Positions 9,951-53,119 of a stretch of 64,000 bases of DNA are shown in pieces. The notes under the pieces were generated by a model. That model did not search any database. It was not told the origin of the DNA and was given only the letters and a program-made list of their open reading frames with translations. The translations under genes and the position numbers were made by a program. This stretch comes from Heterodontus francisci (taxonomy: Eukaryota), in NCBI RefSeq assembly GCF_036365525.1, contig NC_090377.1, positions 122,688,007-122,752,006 of the forward strand. Direction: 5' to 3'. How positions within the stretch are numbered: the stretch's first letter is position 1; every line of letters begins with the position of its first letter.

Positions 9951-12283
9951 TGTCTGTGCTTCTCCAATTCTGGCCTTTTGTGCATCCCCAATTATAATCA
10001 TGCCACATTGGCAGCTGTGCTTTCAGCTGCCTACGCCCTAAGCTCTGGAATTCCCTCCCTACACCTCTCCACCTCTCCTCCTTCATAACACTCCTTAAAA
10101 CCTATCTCTTTGACCAAGTTTTTGATTACCGGTCCTAAAATCTCCCGAGGTGGCTCGGTGTCAAATTTTGTTTGAGAACACTCCAGTGAAGCGCCATGGG
10201 ATGTTTTACTATGTTAAAGGCACAATAGGAAGACAAGTTGTTGTTGTAGTTTAATATAGATTTCTGTATTAGTCTTTCCACATCGCTCACGAGTGTTTTT
10301 TGGTAAAGATCATCAGCAAGATGAATTTCACCCTGACGTGCATAAATGTGACATTTTGGCTTATCCATTATGATCAGCGGTGCAGTTAAGTCTTAACTTT
10401 TCATTAATTACAGGTCAGTCTGCTGAAGTCATTTCAGATGCTCAAGAATGTCAGGCTGTGGATCAAATAAGACAAAAGAAAAGTTAAAATCCTCTGAGGA
10501 GCAATTTCAGCTAAATGCAATTTACTTCTTCACAGAACCCCCCTTGCCTTAGAGAAATGAAAGGTAATTATGAACCTTGATAACTCTTTAGACTGACAAT
10601 GAAGTACTCCTATTTCTTTTGTTCTTGACTATGATTTATAGGTTACTCATTCCCAGCAGCTGAAGTTTTGTTGCTTTTATTCTTGGGGGATTTTCAACGG
10701 GGACAGGGGGAAATGTGCTGGGAAGTTTTGTCCTGATTTCCCCTCTAAAGCTGTGACCTTTGCCCCTGTGCCTGTCTCAAACCATTGAAATCCAGTAGAA
10801 TAATAACTGGACTTTTCTCCATGGCACTGAGTACCCATTTCCTGCCATGCAAAATTCGCAGTACAGTCTATGCTTTTTATTATAATATGTGAAATTGTGG
10901 CAATTTTGTTTACACATTTCAATCTTCTGTTAACTGTCTCAGGAGGGCTTGGAATGGTGCAGTTTGGTGACGTGTTCCGTCTGACTGCAATTGATCAGAT
11001 GCAGGTCTAAGCATGCCTTTCTGCTCAGGAGGGAAAATTCTTGGTTTTGCAGAATGTATAGGGTTTCTATAATTTGTCTCCCTCTACATTGGAGAGTTGC
11101 TTGAAGCTTACCCTTCACTTTCAGTTGGGTCCTGCCTGGATTTCTTCTAATCCAAGGCTTCTCTTCAGCCTGTAGAATGGCTCTGTTTTGTCTTCGGACT
11201 TCCGCCTGTCGTACGATCTGAATTGCCTTCTCGCATGTAAGGTCATCTTTCAACTGTAAGAGATCGGGAAAAGACTCTTCAGCTCTTCCGACAACTATTC
11301 AGATCTGCCTTTAATTCTCCATAGTCACATCCCTCAGCCAAACTGTACAGATCATTTATAAAAGAATCTACAGATTAGCCTATCTTCAGGATTTGCTTGT
11401 TAAATTTTGCTCACTCCAGAATTTTGTTACTGTGTAAATTGAAATATTTGTCGAAGGCTGGTAACATCCTCAAATTTATCAGATGCCTCGTTTATGCTTC
11501 ACAATTGCATCATCTGCATATGCACCTGTAGAGTATAAGAGGGTATTAACTTGTTCTGCTTCTGATTTAGAATGAAACAGGGAAGCAATCCTAAATTGGA
11601 GGAATCTATTTCTCCATAAAGTCCAACTTTGTTCCTGATTGGGTCCTTCCTGATTGTGGAAGCTTTCAGGCATTCTAAATTTTGAATACATTCTGTTTTC
11701 TTGGCTTTGTTAGGATTTTTTAGGGTGTTTCCCTTTCTTTTTAAAATGTATTGGCTTTAATGGAGGTGTTAATGCTCTTTCTAGGGGTTTCCCACACTTT
11801 CCGGGAATTCCTGTGCTCTCTCTCTGCGGTCTGGCTGAGTAATGGCTGCCGACTCCACCCGACTCCCAACTCGCCTTTTCGCTCAAGATCAACCTCGCTC
11901 CCCAATTTTTTCACACAGTGCGCTGTTGTCCACAATGGCCCCTTTTTAAAAATCTCTCACCCAATCCTGAAACGTCACCCGGCACTGTGAGTGGGAATCC
12001 GATTGCTGGACCTGGTGTTTCGTGGCAGACCATCGCGCTGCTGTTGCACAGTCTGAATGCCTGTACAGCTGCAGTTCTGGAGCTCTTTGCAGTCCCCTGA
12101 TGAGATCTGCTGTTCTCTTGGCACTGCTTCATGAGGTAAGGTGTTCTCCATACTTTCTGGTCGTTCTAACCGGTGCCACCATATTGTGTGTTGTTGTAGC
12201 AGGAGTAGCGTAGTTAGGGCATTCTTGATAAGGTCTCGGAGTCTGGATAAGGTCAACTAATAACTCTTATATTATTTACACAT

Positions 12284-13498
12284 ACCCCACTCCTGCGCCG
12301 TGGCAGTCACCCGAGCCATTTTCCGCTTCGTCTGGGGATCTAAAATGGACCGAGTCCGGAGGGACACGATGTTCAAATCTCTGGACATGGGCGGGAAAAA
12401 TGTACCTAACGTGGCCCTCATCCTGATGACCACCTTCGTGTGCGGCTGCATCAAGCTATGTGTAGATCCCCAGTACGCAAACTCCAAGTGTCACTACGTG
12501 CTGAGGTTCTATCTGTCCCCGGTGTTGCGAAGGATGGGCCTGGTCACATTGCCGCGGAACGCACCATGCAGTTGGGCGGCGCCGTACCACCTATCCTTCG
12601 TGGAGCAGTTTCTGCGGAAAAACACCTTTGACCACCAATCCATCAGGCAGTGGTTTGCACGGAATGTCCTCAAGGCCCTACGGGAAAAGGAAACGGTGGA
12701 TCCTGTCGGATGGTTCCCCGAGCAGACCGTCAAAGTCATTTGGCGGAATGCCTCATCACCAGAACTTTCAAGCAAGCACCAAGACGTAGCTTGGCTGGTG
12801 GTGAGAAGGGCCCTCCCCGTCAGATCCTTCATGCACACCCGAAGTCTCGCCCCCTCCGCACAGTGCCCCCGCGTTGGCTGTGGTGGGGAAGAGACGGTCG
12901 CCCACCTCCTCCTGCAAAGCAGGTGTGGAAAGAGATGCAGTGGTTTTTGTCAAGGTTCATCCCAAGCAGCTCTGTAACACAGGAGTCTGTGCTCTACGGG
13001 CTGTTCCCAGGGACGCACACCGAGACAATCATCAACTGCTGCTGGAGGACTATCAATTCGGTGAAAGACGCCCTTTGGTTTGCCCGAAACCTGCTGGTCT
13101 TCCAGCGCAAAGAGTTGTCCACCACCGAATGTTGCAGACTGGCACATTCCAAGGTCCAGGACTACGTGCTGAGGGACGCACTAAAGCTTGGGGCAGCCGC
13201 AGCAAAGGCTCAATGGGGAAAGACCACAGTGTAAGGTTCCCCCACCAAGCTGGACTGAGGGGCTGGAACCACGGGAAGCCCCTCGAACTGTATCGTTAAT
13301 ATTCTCAATTGCTGTAAATGTAAAACTGTAATTGACATGACAATTGTGAAACGGAAGGGTTGGGAAGAAACTCATGACATTATTGAAAGAAACTGATCTC
13401 TTTTGCAATGTTTGTATTTTTTCGTGCTGTTTGGAAACTGTTTGGCAATGTAATTTTTACAGAGTTTTATGAATAAAGTATATTTTGGAAAAAAAAAA
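12284..13498 (+). mobile_element. Tx1 (L1-clade) LINE, 5'-truncated, copy 1
   Basis: ORF2 C-terminus IFRFVWGSKMDRV..GG..VPN and zf-RVT (CPRxGCGGEETVAHLL); AATAAA, poly(A), TSD ATTATTTACACAT. Confidence 0.9.
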
Positions 13499-13512
13499 TA
13501 TTATTTACACAT

Positions 13513-14050
13513 CCCAAGCAGCTCTGTAACACAGGAGTCTGTGCTCTTCGTGCTGTTCCCAGGGACGCACACCAAGACAAACATCAACTGCTGCTGGAGG
13601 ACTATCAATTCGGTGAAAGACGCCCTTTGGTTTGCCCGAAACCTGCTGGTCTTCCAGCGCAAAGAGTTTTCCACCACCGAATGTTGCAGACTGGCACATT
13701 CCAAGGTCCAGGACTACGTGCTGAGGGACGCACTAAAGCTTGGGGCAGCCGCAGCAAAGGCTCAATGGGGAAAGACCACAGTGTAAGGTCCCCCCACCAA
13801 GCTGAACTGAGGATCCATGGGAAACCCCTCGAACTGTATCGGGAAAATTCTGTGTGCTGTAAATGTAAAAATGTAATTGGCATGACAATGAAATGGAAGG
13901 GTTGTGAGGCAACTCAAAATTGTATGGAAGGAAACTGATCACCTTTGCACTGTTTGTATTTTTTGACTTGATGCTGTTTTAAACTGTTTGGAAATGTATT
14001 TTTCACAGATTTTTATGAATAAAGTATATTTTGGAAATTTAAAAAAAAAA
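13513..14050 (+). mobile_element. Tx1 LINE, 5'-truncated, copy 2 (tandem to copy 1)
   Basis: Nearly identical ORF2 end to 12958-13234, diverged 3' UTR, poly(A), flanked by ATTATTTACACAT. Confidence 0.9.
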
Positions 14051-15799: not shown

Positions 15800-16757
15800 C
15801 AGGGACTGGATCCCATGTAAAACCCCTTGGGTTGTATGCACCAGAGAATGTTTGACATGAAACATTGTAAATGTAACCTGTAATCGCAAGTGTAGTTGAG
15901 GCACCTCATGTACTGATTTGAAAGAAACTGATCTTTATTGCACTTCATGTAATGTCAAATTTAAAATGTTCTGTATTTTTTTTTACCGATTTTATGTCAT
16001 TTGGTAGAACGCCTCATCACCAGAATTTTCAAACAAGCACCAAGACATAGCTTGGCTGATGGTGAGAAAGGACCTCCCTGTCAGATCCTTCTTGCATGCC
16101 CGGAGTCTCACCCCCTCTGCACTCTGCCCTCGAGGTGGCTGTGGTGGGGAAGAGACTGTTGCCCAACTCCTTCTGGAATGTGTCTTCGCAAAGCAGGTGT
16201 GGAAAGAGATGCAGTGGTTTTTGTCGAGGTTCATCCCAAGCAGCTCTGTAACACAGCAGTCTGTGCTCTACGGGCTGTTCCCAGGGACACACACCGAGAT
16301 AAACATCAACTGCTGCTGGAGGACCATCAATTCGGTAAAAGACGCTCTTTGGTCTGCCAGAAACTTACTGGTCTTCCAGCGTAGACTTGTCCAGAGTCGA
16401 GTGTTACAGACTGGCACATTCTAAGGCTACGTGCTGAGGGACGCACTAAAGCTTGGGGCAGCCACTGCAAAGGCTCAATGGGGAATGACCACTGTGTAAG
16501 GTCCTCCCGCCATAGTGAACTGAGGGGCTGGACCCATGGGAAACCCCTCGGGCTGTATACACCAAATATGGGTTGGCTGTAAAATGTACATGGCATACAA
16601 AATGGGATGGAAGGGTTGTGAGGCAACTCACTCCTGTATTGAAGAAAACTGATTTCCTTTGCACTTTTAGAAATGTCATCTTGGTGCTGTTTTGAACTGG
16701 TTTGTAATGTATTTTTGTTACAGATTTTTATGAATAAAGTATATTTTTGGAAAAAAA
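15800..16757 (+). mobile_element. Tx1 3'-UTR relic (15800-15996) followed by Tx1 copy (15997-16757)
   Basis: ORF 16059-16424 is homologous to the Tx1 zf-RVT region; ends AATAAAGTATATTTTTGG(A)n. The upstream segment matches the same 3' UTR but stops just before AATAAA. Confidence 0.85.
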
Positions 16758-16899
16758 GATAAAATTAGATAACATCAAAATTAGTTATATGGGATAAAGA
16801 TTATAAACTTTATAGGAATAAGGATAGGGATTGTGAAATTTACAAGTGCAGAGGCTTAAAACTCCATATATCGTTTCAGTGGTTTGACAACTCTTGCTG

Positions 16900-17590
16900 G
16901 GGAATCTGCATCTCAGCTGTTGCTATTTTTTCTGAAGTTTCTCCCTCTCTGCATTCAGTTTCTGTTGCTCTGCCTTCAACCTGCTAATATACTCTGTTGC
17001 TTTTCTCAGGATGCCCACTTTTTGAGGCCTTGTTACTCTTGGAAAGTTCCGGCACCTCATCTTGAAGAGCCAACAGAAAATGCTCCACCTCATTCTTCCT
17101 CAGCCTCTTCATGACATTGCGTGTCCTTCGCCTCTCCTCATCATCTGTGTGTGAAGGTCTGGGGATTCAAGGTCGAGGATTTGTTCGGGAAAGAGTACTT
17201 GGTCTCATGGAGGTACCTGTCCGTTCTGGCTCGTTGTGGTGCTGGTGGTTCTCTAGAGAGCAGAAGTGAAGGCGCAGCATAGGATTGCTGAATTTCCAGA
17301 CTGCACCGTTTGATGCTGGCCAGAGTCTGAAAGCGGGTTCCGGTCCTTGGAGATTTTCCCTCACTGCCAGCCTTTGCTTCTCAATGGTTACAACGGCAAT
17401 CCCTTTTCTGAATCACTGGAGCGTGAAGAAACACTGCCTTTTGACAAAGAGTTTTCACCATCCAAATTTGGATCTTCATTCTCCTGGTGTGGCATCTCTG
17501 AGAAGAGGCTGATACTGTCCAAACCAGAACCACTGAGATCCTGCAAGAACTGTGACTCAATCTCAGATATCAAGGGGCTGGACACAGGGA
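16900..17590 (-). pseudogene. myc: Intronless, 5'-truncated Myc-family (bHLH-Zip) pseudogene embedded in Gypsy pol
   Basis: Manual minus-strand translation gives, in order: QFLQDLS, SSDSE/IAVVTIEKQR (MBIIIb EEIDVVTVEKR), IKRCSLEIQQSYAAPS (MBIV), PPAPQRARTD (NLS-like), DDEERRRTRNVMKRLRKNEVEHFLLALQDEVPELSKSNKASK/VGILRKATEYISRLKAEQQKLNAEREKLQKK*QQLR. About 4 frameshifts and 1 stop; the paralog is uncertain. Confidence 0.92.
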
Positions 17591-18879
17591 GATGCAGTAT
17601 GGCATCACCTTTGGAGTCTCCTGTGGCCTCAAACCTGTCTGGGTACATTTGTTGCAAAACCTGGACTGACTCAATATGGTTGTATCTTTGATTTCCAACA
17701 ACCCCAGTACATATCCTGCAAGATTCGAACTGGTAGGATATTTGCACTAGCTCTGGTGTCAATCTTGACCCTGAGTGTGTGGTTTCCAGCTTTCTTTGGG
17801 CACATGATGTTAATGGTAGCAAAAGCTTCCAGTTGTTTGGCTTTATCAACAACAATGTGTCAGGTTCACAATGTGAGAAGCCTGTTCGTCTTCTGGCTGA
17901 GAATTGCTCCACTCTGAGTCTTGCTTCAGGTCTGTTTCGTTGTGGACTTCGTGTATTGGCTTGCATAGGCGGGCCCAGTGTCCTTTTGCACCGCACGCCT
18001 TGCACAGATCTTGAAATGCAGGACAACTTTGCGGTGATTGGGACAAACCACACTTACCACGCAGCTTGCTTGCTTTTTGCGATCTGGTTATTGTGCCAAT
18101 ACTGTTGGCTGCAACTACTGCTTGCTGATGCTGTTGTCCAGCTACAATGCCTTCATATTTCCTGCCATCTTCTAGCAGCGCATCAATGCTGTGACCTTTC
18201 TTTTTCCCCAAGAGGTCTTTCTGAAACGCTTCAATGGCTGTTGAGACAATCACCAGTTCCATTAATCACTCCGACAGCTCAGTTACTGAAAAATCGCAAT
18301 TGTTGCCCTTACTATGGCATCTACTGATGAACTGATCTATTGATTCCTGTGACTGTTGCCTGTAGGACATCAATTTCAGGGGGTGAATTCTGAAATTCAC
18401 TCTTATTTGGAGTTGATCTTCTAGAACTTTCCATATCTTTGTGGGATCTTTCTGGTCCTCTTCAGATAAGCCAGAGTTACTGATTCTGTATAATCCCTTA
18501 TTTCCAACTGCTATTAGTATTTTTACAGCCTGCTTCTCTCATTATACAATCACTTGTTCTGTGAAACATAACTGCATTCTTTGTTTAAAAAGTTTCAACT
18601 CGGATAGGATATCAATGGCCTTCCAGTTCATGCTGGGAAATTTGGTATCACCTTTCTGCTGTTCCTTTGCTTTCTGCTCTATATTTAACTTTGTTCTTTT
18701 CACTCTGCACTGTTTCCCCTTTAAGAAATTCTCTGTTATTTAGACTAGCTGCTTGGAATGGAGAGGAGCAAGTGTTTGGCAGTGTTCTCTTAAGTGCTTG
18801 CAGTACTTAAGCCTGTCTGTTTACAGAGCTGTTCAATAGGCAATTCAATTGCTTTTTTTAGAGTTTGTTTATGTTCTTC

Positions 18880-19060
18880 ACGCTCGAGTGGTTTAATTTT
18901 TTTGAGCTGTGGCTGAGTAAATGGAGACTCTTCTTCCTGCTCGAATGGTTTAATGATTTTTTTAAACTTTGGCTGCTTGAATGGAGACTCGTCTTCATGC
19001 TCGAGTGGTTTAATGACTTTTTTAAACTTTTGCTGCATGAATGGAGATTCTGCAGTGTTC
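18880..19060 (-). repeat. ~60-bp tandem repeat x3 in the Gypsy leader, encoding 20-aa units
   Basis: ORF 18790-19095 repeats ESPFxQxKFKKxIKPxExE three times. Confidence 0.8.
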
Positions 19061-19085
19061 AGAAGTTTCCCATGCTTTTTGTTAT

Positions 19086-19436
19086 GGGGCGGCACAGTGG
19101 CGCAGTGGTTAGCACTGCAGCCTCACAGCTCCAGCGACCCGGGTTCAATTCTGGGTACTGCCTGTGTGGAGTTTGCAAGTTCTCCCTGTGTCTGCGTGGG
19201 TTTCCTCCGGGTGCTCCGGTTTCCTCCCACATGCCAAAGACTTGCAGGTTGATAGGTAAATTGGCCATTAGCAATTGCCCCTAGTATAGGTAGGTGGTAG
19301 GGTAATATAGGGACAGGTGGGGATGTGGTAGGAATATGGAATTAGTGTAGGATTAGTATAAATGGGTGGTTGATGGTCGGCACAGACTCGAAGGGCCTGT
19401 TTCAGTGCTATATCTCTAAACTAAACTAAACTAAAC
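19086..19436 (+). mobile_element. HE1-type V-SINE inserted in the Gypsy leader
   Basis: A box TGGCGCAGTGG, B box GGTTCAATTC, V-domain GGGTTTCCTCCGGGTGCTCCGGTTTCCTCCCAC, tail (CTAAA)n. Confidence 0.9.
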
Positions 19437-20056
19437 CTCCTGTAATGTCGCCGACCTCGATCAGCCTGGGCGAGGAATCAGATCCTCCCTGTGTTTTTTT
19501 TTCATGGAGCCTTTGAAAAAAATCAACTTTTTAAGCACTTCAAAGCTTGTTTTTTTTTTAAACCAGTATCCCTCGACTGTCGGCACGATGACTCACTCGA
19601 TCACAGGAATTTGCTTGCAGCCTGTCATTCTGAAATCTGTCTTCTACAGCTGGAGGTAAGTTCTTTTTTCTTTCCACTTTTTGGGCCAGTATCTCTTTTG
19701 AACTTTCTTTCTTTTGTCTGTAGCAGGGGTCATTTTCAAAGCTATTTTACCTGTGGTCTTCAAGCTTAGCTCTTGTGTTTTCACCACAGCTGCCACCATA
19801 TAATGAGTTCTTTATGTTGTCTGATGCAACATAAATGAGACACGTGGAGCTTAGTTTGCTGAAGATCTCTAACAGGTTTATTAACAGCTCAACTATTATA
19901 TACAGTACAGAGCAAACTATTTACAGAACCTTCGTCTGAGCGTTACAGTTGCAGAGTGACTCTGGCTTCGAGTCACATGACTACATCCTGGTACTTAGCT
20001 CATTAGCATACTGAGATCTTAAAGGGACATCACTCTTAAGGCAATCATACAATTAG

Positions 20057-42570: not shown

Positions 42571-45503
42571 CCAAAATAAAGGCAAAATACTGCGGATGCT
42601 GTAAATCTGAAATAAGAACAAGAAATGCTGGGAATACTCAGCAGGTCTGGCAGCATCTGTGGCGAGAGAAGCAGAGTTAACGTTTCAGGTCAGTGACCCT
42701 TCTTCAGAACTGGCAAATATTAGAAATGCAAAAGGTTTTAAGTGAGTAAAGCGAGGGTGGGGCAAGAGATAACAAAGGAGAAGGTGTAGATAGGACAAGG
42801 TCACAGAATAGCTGACCAGAAGGTCGTGGAGCAAAGGCAAACAATATGTTAATGGTGTGTTGAATGACAAAACATTAGTACAGTTAGGACTGAAAATTGA
42901 ACAGCCGCAAGTACAAACATGAAAAAAAACAGTGGGTAAGCAAACTGAACAAACTAAGATGAAATAAATTAAATAAACACAAAAAATATTTTAAAAGGAA
43001 AAAGAAAAAAATAACTAAAAATAAAAGTAAAATGGGGGGCCCGTCAAGCTCTGAAATTATTGAACTTAATGTTCAGTCTGGCAGGCTGTAGTGTGCCTAA
43101 TCGGTAAATGAAATGCTGTTCCTTGAGCTTGTGTTGATGTTCACTGGAACACTGCAGCAATCCCAGGACAGAGATGTGAGAATGAGAGCAGGGGGGAGTG
43201 TTGAAATGGCAAGCAACCAGAAGCTCGGGGTCCTGCTTGCGGACTGAGCGGAGGTGTTCCGCAAAGCGGTCACCCAGCCTGCGTTTGGCCTCCCCAATGT
43301 AGAGGAGACCACATTGTGAGCAGCGAATACAGTATACTACATTGAAAGAAGTACAAGTAAATCGCTGCTTCACCTGAAAGGAATGTTTGGGGCCTGGGAT
43401 AGTGAAGAAAGAGGAGGTAAATAGGCAGGTATTACACCTCCTGCGATTGCAGGGGAAGGTGCCATGGGAAGGGGACGAGGTGGTGGGGGTAATAGAGGAG
43501 TGAACCAGGGTGTCACAGAGGGAACAATCTCTTCGGAATGCTGACAGGGGAAGGGAGGAGAAGATGCATTTGGTAGTAGCATCATGCTGGAAGTGGTGGA
43601 AATGGCGGAGGATGATCCTTTGGATATGGAGGCTGATGGGGTGGAAAGTGAGGACACGGGGAACCCTGTTACGGTTCTGGGAGGGAGGGGAAGGGGTGAG
43701 GGTAGAAGTGCAGGAAATGGGCCGGACACGGTTGAGGGCCCTGTCAACCACTGTGGGGGGGGGGAGAATCCTTGGTTGAGGAAAAAGGAAGACATATCAG
43801 AAGCACTGTCGTGGAAGGTAGCATCATCAGAGCAGATGCATCGGAGACGGAGAAACTGGGAGAATGGAATGGAGTCCTTGCAGGAGGCAGGGGGTGAAGA
43901 AGTGTAGTCGAGGTAGTTGTGGGAGTCGGTGGGCTTATAATGGATATTAGTAGACAGCCTATCCCCAGAGAGGGAGACAGAGACGTCGAGGAAGGGAAGG
44001 GAAGTGTCGGAGATGGACCATGTAAATGTGAGAGGTGGAAATTAGAACGTCCAATGGACATCCAATCTCTCGACACCTTCATCTCCCACCAGGACGGTTT
44101 GAGGGCTCTCCGCTTCTTCCTTGAACAGAGGCCCAACCAGTCCCCATCCACCACCACCTTCCTCCGCCTGGCTGAACTTGTTCTCACATTGAACAACTTC
44201 TCCTTCAACTCCATTCACTTCCTTCAAGTAAAAGGTGTTGCTAAGGGTACCCGTATGGATCCTAGTTATGCCTGTCTTTTTGTGGGATATGTCAAACATT
44301 CCATGTTCCAGTCCTACGCTGGCCCCCTACCTCAACTCTTTTTCTGGTGCATTGATGACTGTATCGGTGCAGTTTCCTGCTCCCGCCCCGAACTGGAAAA
44401 CTTTATCAACTTTGCTTCTAATTTCCACCCTACTCTCACCTTTACATTATCCCCTTGTCCTCACTTTCCACCCCACCAGCCTCCATATCCAAAGGATCAT
44501 CCTCCGCCATTTCCGCCACCTCCAGCGTGATGCCACTACCAAATGCATCTTCCCCTCCCTTCCCCTGTCAGCATTTTGAAGGGATTGTTCCCTCCGTGAT
44601 ACCCTGGTCCATTCCTCCATACCCCCACCACCTCGTCCCCTTCCCATGGCACCTTCCCCTGCAATCGCAGGAGGTGTAATACCTGCCCATTTACCTCCTC
44701 TCTCCTCACTATCCCAGGCCCCAAACACTCCTTTCAGGTGAAGCAGCGATTTACTTGTACTTCTTTCAATGTAGTATACTGTATTTGCTGCTCACAATGT
44801 GGTCTCCTCTACACTGGGAAGATCAAACGCAGACTGGGTGACCGTTTTGCGGAACACCTCCGCTCAGTCCGCAAGCAGGACCCCGAGCTTCCGGTTGCTT
44901 GCCATTTCAACATTCCCCACTGCTCTCATGCTCAAATTTCTGTCCTGGGATTGCTGCAGTATTCCAGTGAACATCAACACAAGCTCAAGGAACGCATTTC
45001 ATTTACCAATTAGGCACACTACAGCCTGCCAGACTGAACATTGAGTTCAATAATTTCAGAGCATGACTGGCCCCCCATTTTACTTTTATTTTTAGTTATT
45101 TTTTCTTTTTCCTTTCTTATATTTTTTTTGTGTTTATTTAATTTATTTCATCTTAGTTTGTTCAGTTTGCTTATCCACTGTTTTTTTTCATGTTTGTACT
45201 TGCGGCTATTCAATTTTCAGTCCGTTAACACCCTATCTGTACTAATGCTTTGTCATTCAACACACCATTAACATATTGTTTGCCTTTGCTCCAGGACCTT
45301 CTGGTCAGCTATTCTGTGACCTTGTCCTATCTACACCTTCTCCTTTGTTATCTCTTGCCCCACCCCCACTTTACTTGCTTATAACCTTTTACATTTCTAA
45401 TATTTGCCAGTTCTGAAGAAGGGTCACTGACCTGAAACTCTGCTTCGCTCTCCACAGATGCTGCCAGACCTGCTGAGTATTTCCAGCATTTCTTGTTTTT
45501 ATT
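42571..45503. mobile_element. Penelope-like element (RT + GIY-YIG), two inverted partial copies in one insertion
   Basis: GIY-YIG NVVYCIRCSQCGLLYIGE..RLGDRFAEH on both strands; RT FLQVKGVAKGTRM..YACLF..IDD; 13-bp TSD ATTGGTCTAAATA (42558-42570, 45504-45516). Confidence 0.92.
42679..42707 (-). ncRNA. Minimal hammerhead ribozyme core in the Penelope terminal repeat
   Basis: The minus strand reads CTGAAGA-AGGGTCACTGACCT-GAAACGTT (CUGANGA / stem II / GAAA). A second copy is at 45413-45438 (+). Confidence 0.7.
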
Positions 45504-52378: not shown

Positions 52379-53119
52379 ATGCCCTCTGCATCACAATTCA
52401 CACACTTCCTATTCCACCCAAAACCATGTGACCTCCTGGAAACGGCAAGAAAGTAGAAAAAAACTCAGGCCAATTTGAATCATAGAATTTTACAGCATTG
52501 GAGGACGTTCAGACCATCATGCTGTGCTAGCTCTTTGAAGGAGCAGTCGTGCTTAGTCCCATATGCCCACTTTGTGTTTGTAAACCTGTAAGTTCCGCAT
52601 CCTCAAGTACATGCCCAAATCCCTTTCAAAATTATTTATGGAATCAGCTTCCATCTCCCTCTCAGATAAAGTGTTCCACAGCCGTCAACTCTGTAAGTGA
52701 AAAGAATTCTCTTCATATTGTTACGACCAGGTGAGAAAGGTGTCTAAAGGTCCCTTTCAGCCTTCACCTGGTCGTAACAATATGAAGAGAATTCTTTTCA
52801 CTTACAGAGTTGACGGCTGTGGAACACTTTATCTGAGAGGGAGATGGAAGCTGATTCCATAAATAATTTTGAAAGGGATTTGGGCATGTACTTGAGGATG
52901 CGGAACTTACAGGTTTACAAACACAAAGTGGGCATATGGGACTAAGCACGACTGCTCCTTCAAAGAGCTAGCACAGCATGATGGTCTGAACGTCCTCCAA
53001 TGCTGTAAAATTCTATGATTCAAATTGGCCTGAGTTTTTTTATACTTTCTTGCCGTTTCCAGGAGGTCACATGGTTTTGGGTGGAATAGGAAGTGTGTGA
53101 ATTGTGATGCAGAGGGCAT
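52379..53119. repeat. Near-perfect inverted repeat: 356-bp arms (52379-52734, 52764-53119), 29-bp spacer
   Basis: Arms are reverse complements, with one mismatch noticed (52456/53042); the same 61-aa ORF appears on both strands in the ORF track. Confidence 0.95.

What the first reader, a model, noticed from the sequence alone, without database searches (positions are those of the whole stretch)
16760..20051. Gypsy LTR retrotransposon that appears to have transduced a Myc proto-oncogene (v-myc-like architecture)
Seen, on the minus strand in order: LTR, PBS, gag (zinc knuckle), protease N-half, pre-RT linker (MYPDRFEATGxxKGDAILHL), then with no stop and in the same frame a Myc-family sequence (PVSSPLISEIESQFLQDLS...SSDSE, MBIIIb, MBIV, NLS-like, bHLH-Zip), then ARVVKPLKRYMEF* and an AT-rich 3' UTR. 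RT, RNase H and integrase core are absent; the myc part is co-oriented and has no visible myc 3' UTR, poly(A) or TSD. Established: RxxKPPxRY-type motifs end many Ty3/Gypsy pol proteins, and acutely transforming retroviruses such as MC29 arose by replacing pol with spliced myc through RT template switching. Inference: a Gypsy particle co-packaged myc mRNA and recombined it in at both ends, giving a non-autonomous myc-carrying retrotransposon. It is now decayed; if the same junctions recur elsewhere, this is a mobile myc family. I know of no description of this but cannot search.
Basis: partly seen in the sequence, partly recalled or inferred. Interest (0 to 1): 0.95.

Follow-up and report, generated by a model that had tools for sequence, protein, structure and literature searches.

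The report
Shark retrotransposon family carrying truncated myc
A shark retrotransposon swapped its replication enzymes for the back two-thirds of a spliced host myc-family mRNA and spread to over a thousand now-dead copies, a rare natural record of oncogene-style gene capture, although the cargo lacks Myc's activation domain and mostly lost its DNA-reading residues.

Summary
The window holds one decayed copy of a non-autonomous Ty3/Gypsy family that replaced RT, RNase H and the integrase core with codons 121-357 of the host mych gene. The intron is removed exactly, and both junctions sit in microhomologies (7 and 6 nt) shared with the autonomous parent, in frame. Genome-wide 27-nt patterns find 240 original 5' junctions, 621 spliced exon junctions, 1,229 non-host bHLH copies and 971 parent junctions (controls 0). 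Copies have paired LTRs, a PPT and 5-bp TSDs, with LTR divergence about 0.13 and a star-like tree: one old burst. Contigs from two other organism labels also carry it. It is not v-myc-like in function. MBI and MBII were never captured, and the E-box Glu survives in only 5 of 100 listed copies. Copies decay neutrally. Seven of nine internal junctions are in frame, and the shorter derivatives kept the bHLH-Zip. The cargo was probably translated and detoxified (0.5); it may have been a drifting passenger (0.3) or a useful Max sponge (0.2). The capture mechanism is known; I found no description of this family.

The parts
19799..20054 (-). 5' LTR (~255 bp; family LTRs are TG...CA, this copy's first bases are altered next to a CT microsatellite)
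   Evidence: 72-91% match to LTRs found just after the UTR in 26 of 29 other copies; ends mapped
19782..19798 (-). Primer-binding site (tRNA-Leu type by recall; not tested)
   Evidence: Directly follows the 5' LTR here and in the fetched 5' LTRs of other copies
19088..19436 (.). Later SINE-like insertion into the leader / gag N-terminal region
   Evidence: Absent at this place in other copies but present elsewhere in them and in the window
17850..18631 (-). gag (broken by stops), CCHC zinc knuckle at about 18004-17960, ~110-bp deletion at 17960/17966
   Evidence: Pfam zf-CCHC E 0.002; 82-88% identical to gag of other copies and of the parent; gap against L006
17676..17849 (-). Protease N-half; the C-terminal ~231 bp are deleted at about 17676 in this copy
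   Evidence: the family's protease region is 46% identical to Gag-Pol P0121
17589..17675 (-). Protease-RT linker and first RT residues of the parent; ends at the 5' capture junction. A 15-nt in-frame deletion here removed the 7-nt microhomology seen in other copies
   Evidence: Parent copies align to the window down to 17589 and then continue into RT; junction view
17408..17588 (-). Captured mych exon-2 3' part (from host codon ~124); begins downstream of MBI and MBII
   Evidence: 80% identity to host L043:5622-5848; host protein P0001 alignment
16903..17407 (-). Captured mych exon 3 (MBIIIb, MBIV, basic region, HLH-zipper), joined to exon 2 without the intron. This copy has 4 frameshifts and 1 stop over the whole Myc part, and lacks the E-box His and Glu
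   Evidence: 86% identity to host L043:3392-3919 against 61-63% to c-myc and N-myc; splice junction; Pfam HLH; breaks
16856..16908 (-). 3' capture junction (6-nt microhomology at 16903-16908, one base changed here) and remnant of the integrase C-terminal tail with the pol stop; subfamily 169-nt deletion at about 16897
   Evidence: Parent tails L076 and L077; deletion sizes
16751..16855 (-). Element 3' UTR, cut ~45 bp before the PPT / 3' LTR
   Evidence: 80-85% match to the UTR preceding PPT and LTR in other copies
16008..16757 (+). 3' end of a LINE inserted at the cut point; not part of the element
   Evidence: Pfam zf-RVT E 3.8e-9; repeated at 12914-13845

Best explanation
SHOWN (about 0.95): A Ty3/Gypsy retrotransposon with a single gag-pol frame captured spliced mych mRNA. 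Reverse transcriptase jumped from the element RNA to the mRNA and back at two short identities, 7 nt at the RT start and 6 nt just after the integrase core. RT, RNase H and the integrase core were replaced by Mych residues 121-357, with both LTRs, PBS, PPT, gag and protease kept and the frame open. The chimera was copied in trans by the autonomous parent during one burst, threw off several internally deleted subfamilies, and reached a copy number similar to the parent's. All copies examined have decayed neutrally since insertion. INFERRED (about 0.5 among three readings of the cargo): The Myc fragment was translated as part of the Gag-protease polyprotein, which is why junctions stayed in frame. 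Without its activation domain but still able to bind E-boxes with Max, it would act as a dominant-negative and harm early-embryo or germ cells. Master copies that lost the DNA-reading Glu and His were tolerated and produced most of the family.
For: Source gene: copies are 78-91% identical to mych exons against 59-68% to c-myc and N-myc. Intron removed at the host GT-AG sites; the spliced junction is found 621 times, control 0. Parent: 22 of 29 protease hits have the parent-type junction (21 continue into RT) and 7 continue into mych; RVT_1 and RT_RNaseH pass Pfam cut-offs. The 3' junction was seen in parent tails L076 and L077. Mobility: 240 / 621 / 1,229 / 971 matches. PPT and 3' LTR. TSDs of 4-5 of 5 bases in all 5 myc-type elements whose two outer ends were fully readable. 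Burst: LTR K2P mean 0.126 (n=11, 0.082-0.164), parent 0.134; star tree with myc and RT types intermixed, tips 0.067. Neutral decay: singleton omega 1.01 and 1.27, stops at 0.8-1.0 of the synonymous rate. Cargo: 7 of 9 internal junctions in frame, P 0.008 at 1/3. The Glu codon is kept in 5 of the first 100 of 512 matches, His plus Glu in 3 (my hand tally). Glu is kept in 8 of 33 long-form copies and 0 of 8 shortened ones. Two of five majority-altered residues fall in the His/Glu/Arg triad, P about 0.001 post hoc. Loss of that Glu abolishes DNA binding in MYC (PMC7226237, passage). Zebrafish mych is broadly expressed in the blastoderm after MBT (PMC3958507, passages), a route to co-packaging.
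Against: No protein or stranded RNA evidence that the fusion was made; the RNA runs are guesses held as contigs. Variants shared among copies are mostly non-synonymous (8+ carriers: 8 N, 1 S; only the 4-7 class is skewed to synonymous, omega 0.44), so masters show no clear purifying selection on the Myc sequence. The triad test was chosen after seeing the data; P rises to 0.009 with eight target codons and to 0.028 with all 24 variable sites. One widespread tail deletion and one sampled 5' junction are out of frame. Open frames could be kept for RNA stability alone. The protease tree does not show the myc type as one clade (15 changes, shuffles 16.9; p-AU 0.062), so single origin rests on the shared junctions, not on the tree.
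Confidence: 0.9

Rival explanations
1. Neutral passenger. The mych piece is stuffer RNA; non-autonomous elements need only LTRs, PBS, PPT and packaging signals. In-frame junctions reflect escape from nonsense-mediated decay or codon-periodic microhomology, and the triad changes drifted up with a few lucky masters.
For: Shared variants are as non-synonymous as neutral ones. Shorter derivatives outnumber the original (240 < 621 < 1,229), as expected from selection for short genomes. Open frames of about 240 codons are expected in about 2% of copies by chance (2 of 44 seen, Poisson 0.021).
Against: Two of five majority changes fall in a three-residue triad, and the Glu-bearing form is confined to the long early type. 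The sampled derivatives lose the 5' part but keep the bHLH-Zip (3 of 5; no protease-to-tail joint among the 15 of 72 joints shown).
Confidence: 0.3
2. Useful cargo. A DNA-binding-dead, activation-less bHLH-Zip released by the element's protease acted as a Max sponge (Id- or Omomyc-like). It relieved MAX/MGA-PRC1.6 repression in pluripotent or germline cells and so helped the element's expression.
For: The most numerous derivatives trim towards protease fused in frame to bHLH-Zip. Common HLH-zipper changes are mostly conservative (Val to Ile/Leu at 330, Leu to Met/Ile at 354). MAX/MGA-PRC1.6 represses germline genes in mouse ES cells (PMC10123117, passages). A Myc bHLH-Zip alone can be dominant-negative (Omomyc; PMC7226237, passage).
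Against: No significant purifying signal in the zipper from 43 copies, and Leu347 is Pro in 6 of 41. No evidence that PRC1.6 silences Gypsy elements in sharks. A sponge would help the parent equally. No cleavage site was shown.
Confidence: 0.2
3. A transforming, v-myc-like transducing virus analogous to MC29.
For: Gag-linked, in-frame, intron-less myc replacing pol, and helper-dependent spread.
Against: MBI and MBII lie upstream of the capture point. The E-box Glu is lost in 95 of 100 listed copies. There is no env between the integrase tail and the PPT in parent L076.
Confidence: 0.02
4. LINE-made processed pseudogene inserted into a Gypsy element and trimmed by deletion.
For: The genome is LINE-rich, and a LINE tail abuts the window copy.
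Against: No mych 3' UTR, poly(A) or insert TSD. The parent sequence is replaced rather than interrupted, and both ends lie in parent/host microhomologies.
Confidence: 0.02

Closest known systems
LTR-mediated retrocopies by microsimilarity-dependent template switching (Tan et al. 2016, PMC5131818; passages read)
   Same: Internal ORF replaced by partial mRNA, microsimilarity at both switch points (median 6 bp there; 7 and 6 here), both LTRs kept, further rounds of retroposition possible.
   Different: The passages describe single or few insertions; here more than 1,200 copies with several subfamilies, in-frame fusion to gag-protease, and a Myc-family cargo.
CrocERV29 (KIT-ligand) and CrocERV31 (nectin3) gene captures in crocodilians (Chong et al. 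2014, PMC4299795; passages read)
   Same: Ancient vertebrate LTR element lineages carrying a host mRNA, multi-copy, shared between species.
   Different: Those are retroviral ERVs with 9 and 6 copies, near-complete ORFs and purifying selection. This is a Ty3/Gypsy, two orders of magnitude more copies, with a truncated cargo fused into pol and neutral decay.
Avian MC29 gag-myc transducing retrovirus (architecture recalled; only reference titles seen)
   Same: Spliced myc-family sequence in frame with gag in place of pol; needs a helper.
   Different: MC29 keeps the transactivation domain, is enveloped and transforms (recalled). This element lacks MBI/MBII and env and mostly lacks the E-box residues; its donor is mych.
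Maize Bs1 and human HERV-K/FAM8A1 captures (as cited within PMC5131818)
   Same: Host gene fragments inside LTR elements.
   Different: Different hosts and cargo; FAM8A1 is described there as a single untranscribed pseudogene.
Omomyc / Id-like dominant-negative bHLH(-Zip) proteins (PMC7226237 passage; Id recalled)
   Same: Dimerisation domain without activation domain.
   Different: Only a resemblance; binding to Max was not tested.

Membership tests
Ty3/Gypsy (Metaviridae) LTR retrotransposon, parent family | pol order protease-RT-RNase H-integrase | tested here: met
   RT follows the protease directly, with RVT_1 and RT_RNaseH over cut-off in L051. The integrase-core end and tail follow in L076 and L077 by tblastn to P0121; Pfam alone gave no hit on the 170-aa L077 piece.
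Ty3/Gypsy (Metaviridae) LTR retrotransposon, parent family | TG...CA LTRs, PBS, PPT, 4-6 bp TSD | tested here: met
   PPT before the 3' LTR; 5-bp TSD in 5 myc-type elements and 1 parent
Ty3/Gypsy (Metaviridae) LTR retrotransposon, parent family | RT phylogeny placing it in a named clade (Mag-like by recall) | not tested
   No named references were available; the nearest proteins, P0121 and P0122, are unnamed
LTR-mediated retrocopy (template switch) | Intron-less host mRNA piece replacing the internal ORF | tested here: met
LTR-mediated retrocopy (template switch) | Microsimilarity at both switch points; no poly(A) or insert TSD | tested here: met
   7 nt and 6 nt shared by parent, host and chimera
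Non-autonomous LTR family | Same junctions at many dispersed sites, each with its own TSD; no RT or integrase | tested here: met
Acutely transforming (v-myc) retrovirus | Intact transactivation domain (MBI, MBII) | tested here: not met
   Capture begins at P0001 residue 121, after both boxes
Acutely transforming (v-myc) retrovirus | Intact E-box-reading His/Glu/Arg triad | tested here: not met
   His plus Glu in 3 of 100 listed and 5 of 43 sampled copies
Acutely transforming (v-myc) retrovirus | Retroviral helper with env | tested here: not met
   No room for env between the integrase tail and the PPT in parent L076; one parent followed to its 3' LTR
Acutely transforming (v-myc) retrovirus | Transforms cells | not testable with these tools
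   Needs bench work
Domesticated retrogene | Purifying selection on inserted copies | tested here: not met
   Singleton omega 1.0-1.3, stops at the neutral rate, mean 3.9 breaks per copy in 44 copies; a single conserved copy among more than 1,200 is not excluded
mych (myelocytomatosis oncogene homolog) as donor | Closest host paralogue | tested here: met
   three two-exon host myc genes found; the donor exon is 100% identical to P0001, named mych

The most novel reading that the evidence does not exclude
The captured fragment was working cargo. A Gypsy element evolved, by in-frame trimming and loss of the DNA-reading residues, a Max-sequestering bHLH-zipper that lifted MAX-dependent repression in the early embryo or germline. 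This would be a retrotransposon-encoded anti-silencing factor taken from a host proto-oncogene family.
Probability: 0.2. Interest if true: 0.95.

Novelty: new variant of a known kind. Interest (0 to 1): 0.8.

Why it matters
It shows that the route by which retroviruses pick up oncogenes also ran in a vertebrate Ty3/Gypsy element, in the germline, with a myc-family gene. The product then spread about as widely as its parent. More than a thousand dated copies record what happens to such cargo: the activation domain was never taken, the DNA-reading residues were lost early, and the dimerisation domain was kept. That makes the question of whether retrotransposons gain from, tolerate or purge captured host genes testable on one family. 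In practice, at least three copies are annotated by NCBI as myc or N-myc-like genes (P0006, P0123, P0124), which inflates myc counts and will confound RNA-seq mapping to mych in this lineage.

Tried and rejected
Most are the best-scoring hits, biased to long, well-kept copies. Pfam on single window frames found Myc only weakly (HLH E 8e-4 and 0.03, no Myc_N). 5' LTR fetches: 3 of 15 windows missed the LTR. Of the 11 myc-type pairs, 6 lacked a fully readable outer end, so no TSD call was made. Parent tail fetches: 2 of 5 missed and 1 had the junction deleted. One strand label (L059) was mistyped and corrected. L007 was dropped from the selection counts as a near-duplicate of L006. 14 of 43 myc loci were left out of the tree for incomplete protease. 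The tree could not show or reject one clade. Splitting the stem divergence (dN 0.027, dS 0.141) between host and element was not possible without outgroup DNA: inconclusive. Expression: no RNA holder listed. Three runs guessed to be RNA lay 631-812 contigs each, but contigs cannot show strand or level and intronic read-through would look the same, so this is not counted as evidence. The species behind organisms B and C are coded and were not pursued. Protein searches found the fusion only under one species label; weak evidence of absence elsewhere, since decayed copies are rarely annotated. No structure or complex job was run: Myc-Max is a textbook pair and would pass by likeness. PBS tRNA identity and the Mag-clade label are recalled, not tested. 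Literature searches for this family found no description. The library lacks most subscription journals, Repbase and Dfam could not be searched, and no supplements were opened. Earlier-findings look-ups by place and by sequence were empty.
Full report
1. OBSERVATION. The minus strand of 16751-20054 reads LTR, PBS, gag with a zinc knuckle, protease N-half, linker, a Myc-family segment, a short pol tail and a UTR. The frame claims are not. Only the linker and the exon-2 part share a frame; the Myc part has 4 frameshifts and 1 stop, and the tail peptide is out of frame with the zipper in this copy. Relative to other copies, the window copy also lacks about 110 bp after the knuckle, about 231 bp of protease, and 15 nt at the 5' junction. 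It lacks the PPT and 3' LTR too, cut by a LINE at 16750.

2. IT IS A FAMILY. The window is G000:C7:122688007-122752006 of a 6.0-Gb genome. The Myc segment gave 2,921 candidates; all 39 non-self hits among the 40 scored were 82-86% identical over most of the length. In 26 of 29 fetched loci an LTR matching the window's 5' LTR follows the UTR, preceded by a polypurine tract in the 10 examined. Genome-wide 27-nt patterns with up to 3 mismatches (reversed controls all 0) found 240 original 5' junctions, 621 spliced exon junctions, 1,230 bHLH sites including the host gene and 971 parent RT junctions. On fetched loci these patterns detect 26, 29 and 32 of 44 myc copies, and 13 of the 22 parent loci that hold the RT start, with no cross-detection. 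Rough totals are therefore about 1,700 myc-bearing copies and about 1,600 parent copies.

3. DONOR AND SPLICING. A Myc_N search found three two-exon host genes. Copies match the C16 gene at 78-91% and the other two at 59-68%. That gene's exon is identical to P0001, named 'myelocytomatosis oncogene homolog' (mych) under the label Heterodontus francisci. Exons 2 and 3 are joined at the host splice sites with the 1.7-kb intron gone in all 37 copies aligned. The captured part is residues 121-357 of 366. MBI and MBII lie upstream and were not taken; MBIIIb, MBIV and the bHLH-zipper were.

4. PARENT AND JUNCTIONS. Of 29 non-self protease hits, 22 have the parent-type junction (21 run into RT) and 7 run into mych. 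RT and RNase H pass Pfam cut-offs, and the order protease-RT-RNase H-integrase matches Gag-Pol P0121. At the 5' junction parent, host and chimera share 7 nt (GGATGCA), in the same frame. At the 3' junction they share 6 nt (CAAATT) just after the integrase core, again in frame. This is the double template-switch signature of Tan et al. 2016 (PMC5131818, passages; median 6 bp). There is no mych UTR, poly(A) or insert TSD.

5. MOBILITY AND AGE. Of 15 upstream windows fetched, 12 held a 5' LTR. All 5 myc-type elements with both outer ends fully readable have a 5-bp TSD (one 5/5, four 4/5), as does one parent. LTR-LTR K2P is 0.126 on average (n=11, 0.082-0.164) and 0.134 for the parent. A 51-row protease tree is a star: tips 0.067, myc and RT types intermixed, one-clade test p-AU 0.062. 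Parent and chimera therefore spread together. Of 15 residues private to the host among six sharks, copies share 9 with the host and carry the other-shark residue at 4 (2 ambiguous). Capture thus fell on this lineage after its split from the other sharks compared. With the 203 Ma figure used in PMC3692497 (passages) that suggests very roughly 60-100 Ma; this is my inference under a constant rate. Laid on copy L068, contigs of organism B bridge protease to Myc and show the window-type 3' junction. DNA contigs of organism C span the spliced junction and the 3' junction. The family predates the split of the three organism labels.

6. SUBFAMILIES. Junction types among 43 copies were 13 with the long tail, 6 with a 96-nt tail deletion, 13 with a 169-nt tail deletion (window type), 8 with a shortened 5' side and 3 unassigned. 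Five loci taken from the bHLH list showed further protease-to-exon-3 deletions in 3 of 5. One of these recurs in all 40 scored hits and in organisms A and B. Seven of nine internal junctions are in frame (P 0.008 at one third). The two exceptions are the tail deletion after the zipper and one copy with 10 extra bases lost. The counts 240 < 621 < 1,229 show that later, shorter forms dominate and kept the bHLH-zipper.

7. SELECTION. After insertion, decay is neutral: singleton omega 1.01 for transitions and 1.27 for transversions, stops at 0.8-1.0 of the synonymous rate, and 3.9 breaks per copy, with 2 of 44 unbroken against a Poisson expectation of 2%. Shared variants give mixed signals (omega 0.44 at 4-7 carriers; 8 N to 1 S at 8 or more), so there is no clear purifying selection in masters. 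One pattern stands out. In the first 100 of 512 exact basic-region matches, the Glu codon is kept in 5. The His position shows the CpG-decay profile of an Arg codon (CGC 42, CAC 30, TGC 20, other 8), and both residues survive in 3 (my hand tally). Glu is kept in 8 of 33 long-form copies and in none of 8 shortened ones. Only five positions are altered in a majority of copies relative to all sharks, and two are in the His/Glu/Arg triad: P about 0.001, post hoc, rising to 0.009-0.028 under looser choices. The host basic region aligns exactly with human MYC in 1NKP. The triad reads the E-box, and loss of the Glu abolishes binding (PMC7226237, passage).

8. MECHANISM. Shown: co-option of spliced mych mRNA at two microhomologies, replacement of RT, RNase H and the integrase core, spread in trans in one burst, and neutral decay. 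Inferred: co-packaging in early embryonic cells, since zebrafish mych is broadly expressed after MBT under Pou5f1 (PMC3958507, passages), and translation of the cargo within the single gag-pol frame. For the cargo's role I put 0.5 on translated-and-detoxified, 0.3 on drifting passenger and 0.2 on useful Max sponge. The last draws on MAX/MGA-PRC1.6 repression in mouse ES cells (PMC10123117, passages) and is otherwise untested. A transforming v-myc analogue and a LINE-made pseudogene are each about 0.02.

9. COMPARISON AND NOVELTY. The mechanism is known (PMC5131818). Multi-copy vertebrate captures are known in crocodilian ERVs, with 9 and 6 copies under purifying selection (PMC4299795, passages). 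An earlier unchecked note of this scan describes a single KMT2D capture in another shark genome (e1-8025847; not tested here). It works like an MC29-type transduction in architecture (MC29 recalled) but fails membership on the activation domain, the DNA-contact triad and env. Seven paper searches found no description of a myc-carrying Gypsy family. Subscription journals, Repbase, Dfam and supplements were not seen. Among the top 150 of 1.84 billion representatives, the only fusions I identified were annotated copies under one species label. Verdict: a new variant of a known kind, notable for cargo, scale and the loss of DNA-reading residues. Interest 0.8.

10. LIMITS. Only 100 loci could be fetched, mostly best hits. 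Copy totals are extrapolations. Branch-wise selection tests on all copies, outgroup mych DNA and stranded RNA are missing. The sequence of the founding element was not reconstructed, so the order of events rests on junction sharing and allele counts.

Noticed in passing
P0006, P0123, P0124: Three NCBI gene models named myc- or N-myc-like are element copies (protease fused to Mych), one for each of three junction types; P0124 has at least four accession numbers. All lack the E-box Glu.
   Followed up: partly
G000 genome-wide: The Myc_N search showed three two-exon host genes (c-myc-like on C5, N-myc-like on C3, mych on C16); no L-myc-like gene appeared among the 119 of 1,624 candidates scored.
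   Followed up: no
L042: This myc-carrying copy keeps the parent-length integrase tail (228 nt where 10 others have 5): either the earliest form or a recombinant with the parent.
   Followed up: partly
window 42600-45500: About 1.06-kb inverted repeat (93%) around ORF remnants resembling a Penelope-like element (resemblance recalled).
   Followed up: no
window 52379-53119: 356-nt perfect inverted repeat with a 29-nt spacer, next to a repeat shared with 2079-2420; a very recent foldback or an assembly artefact.
   Followed up: no
window 18840-19090: The gag N-terminal region has 57-60-nt tandem units coding a repeated acidic/basic peptide; unit number varies among copies.
   Followed up: no
L019: Tandem arrangement with three LTRs in 3.7 kb (UTR-LTR, element, LTR, then another 5' LTR with leader).
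   Followed up: no
window 12264-13845 and 16008-16757: Several fragments of the same zf-RVT LINE family, 79-98% alike; one cuts the element's 3' end.
   Followed up: partly
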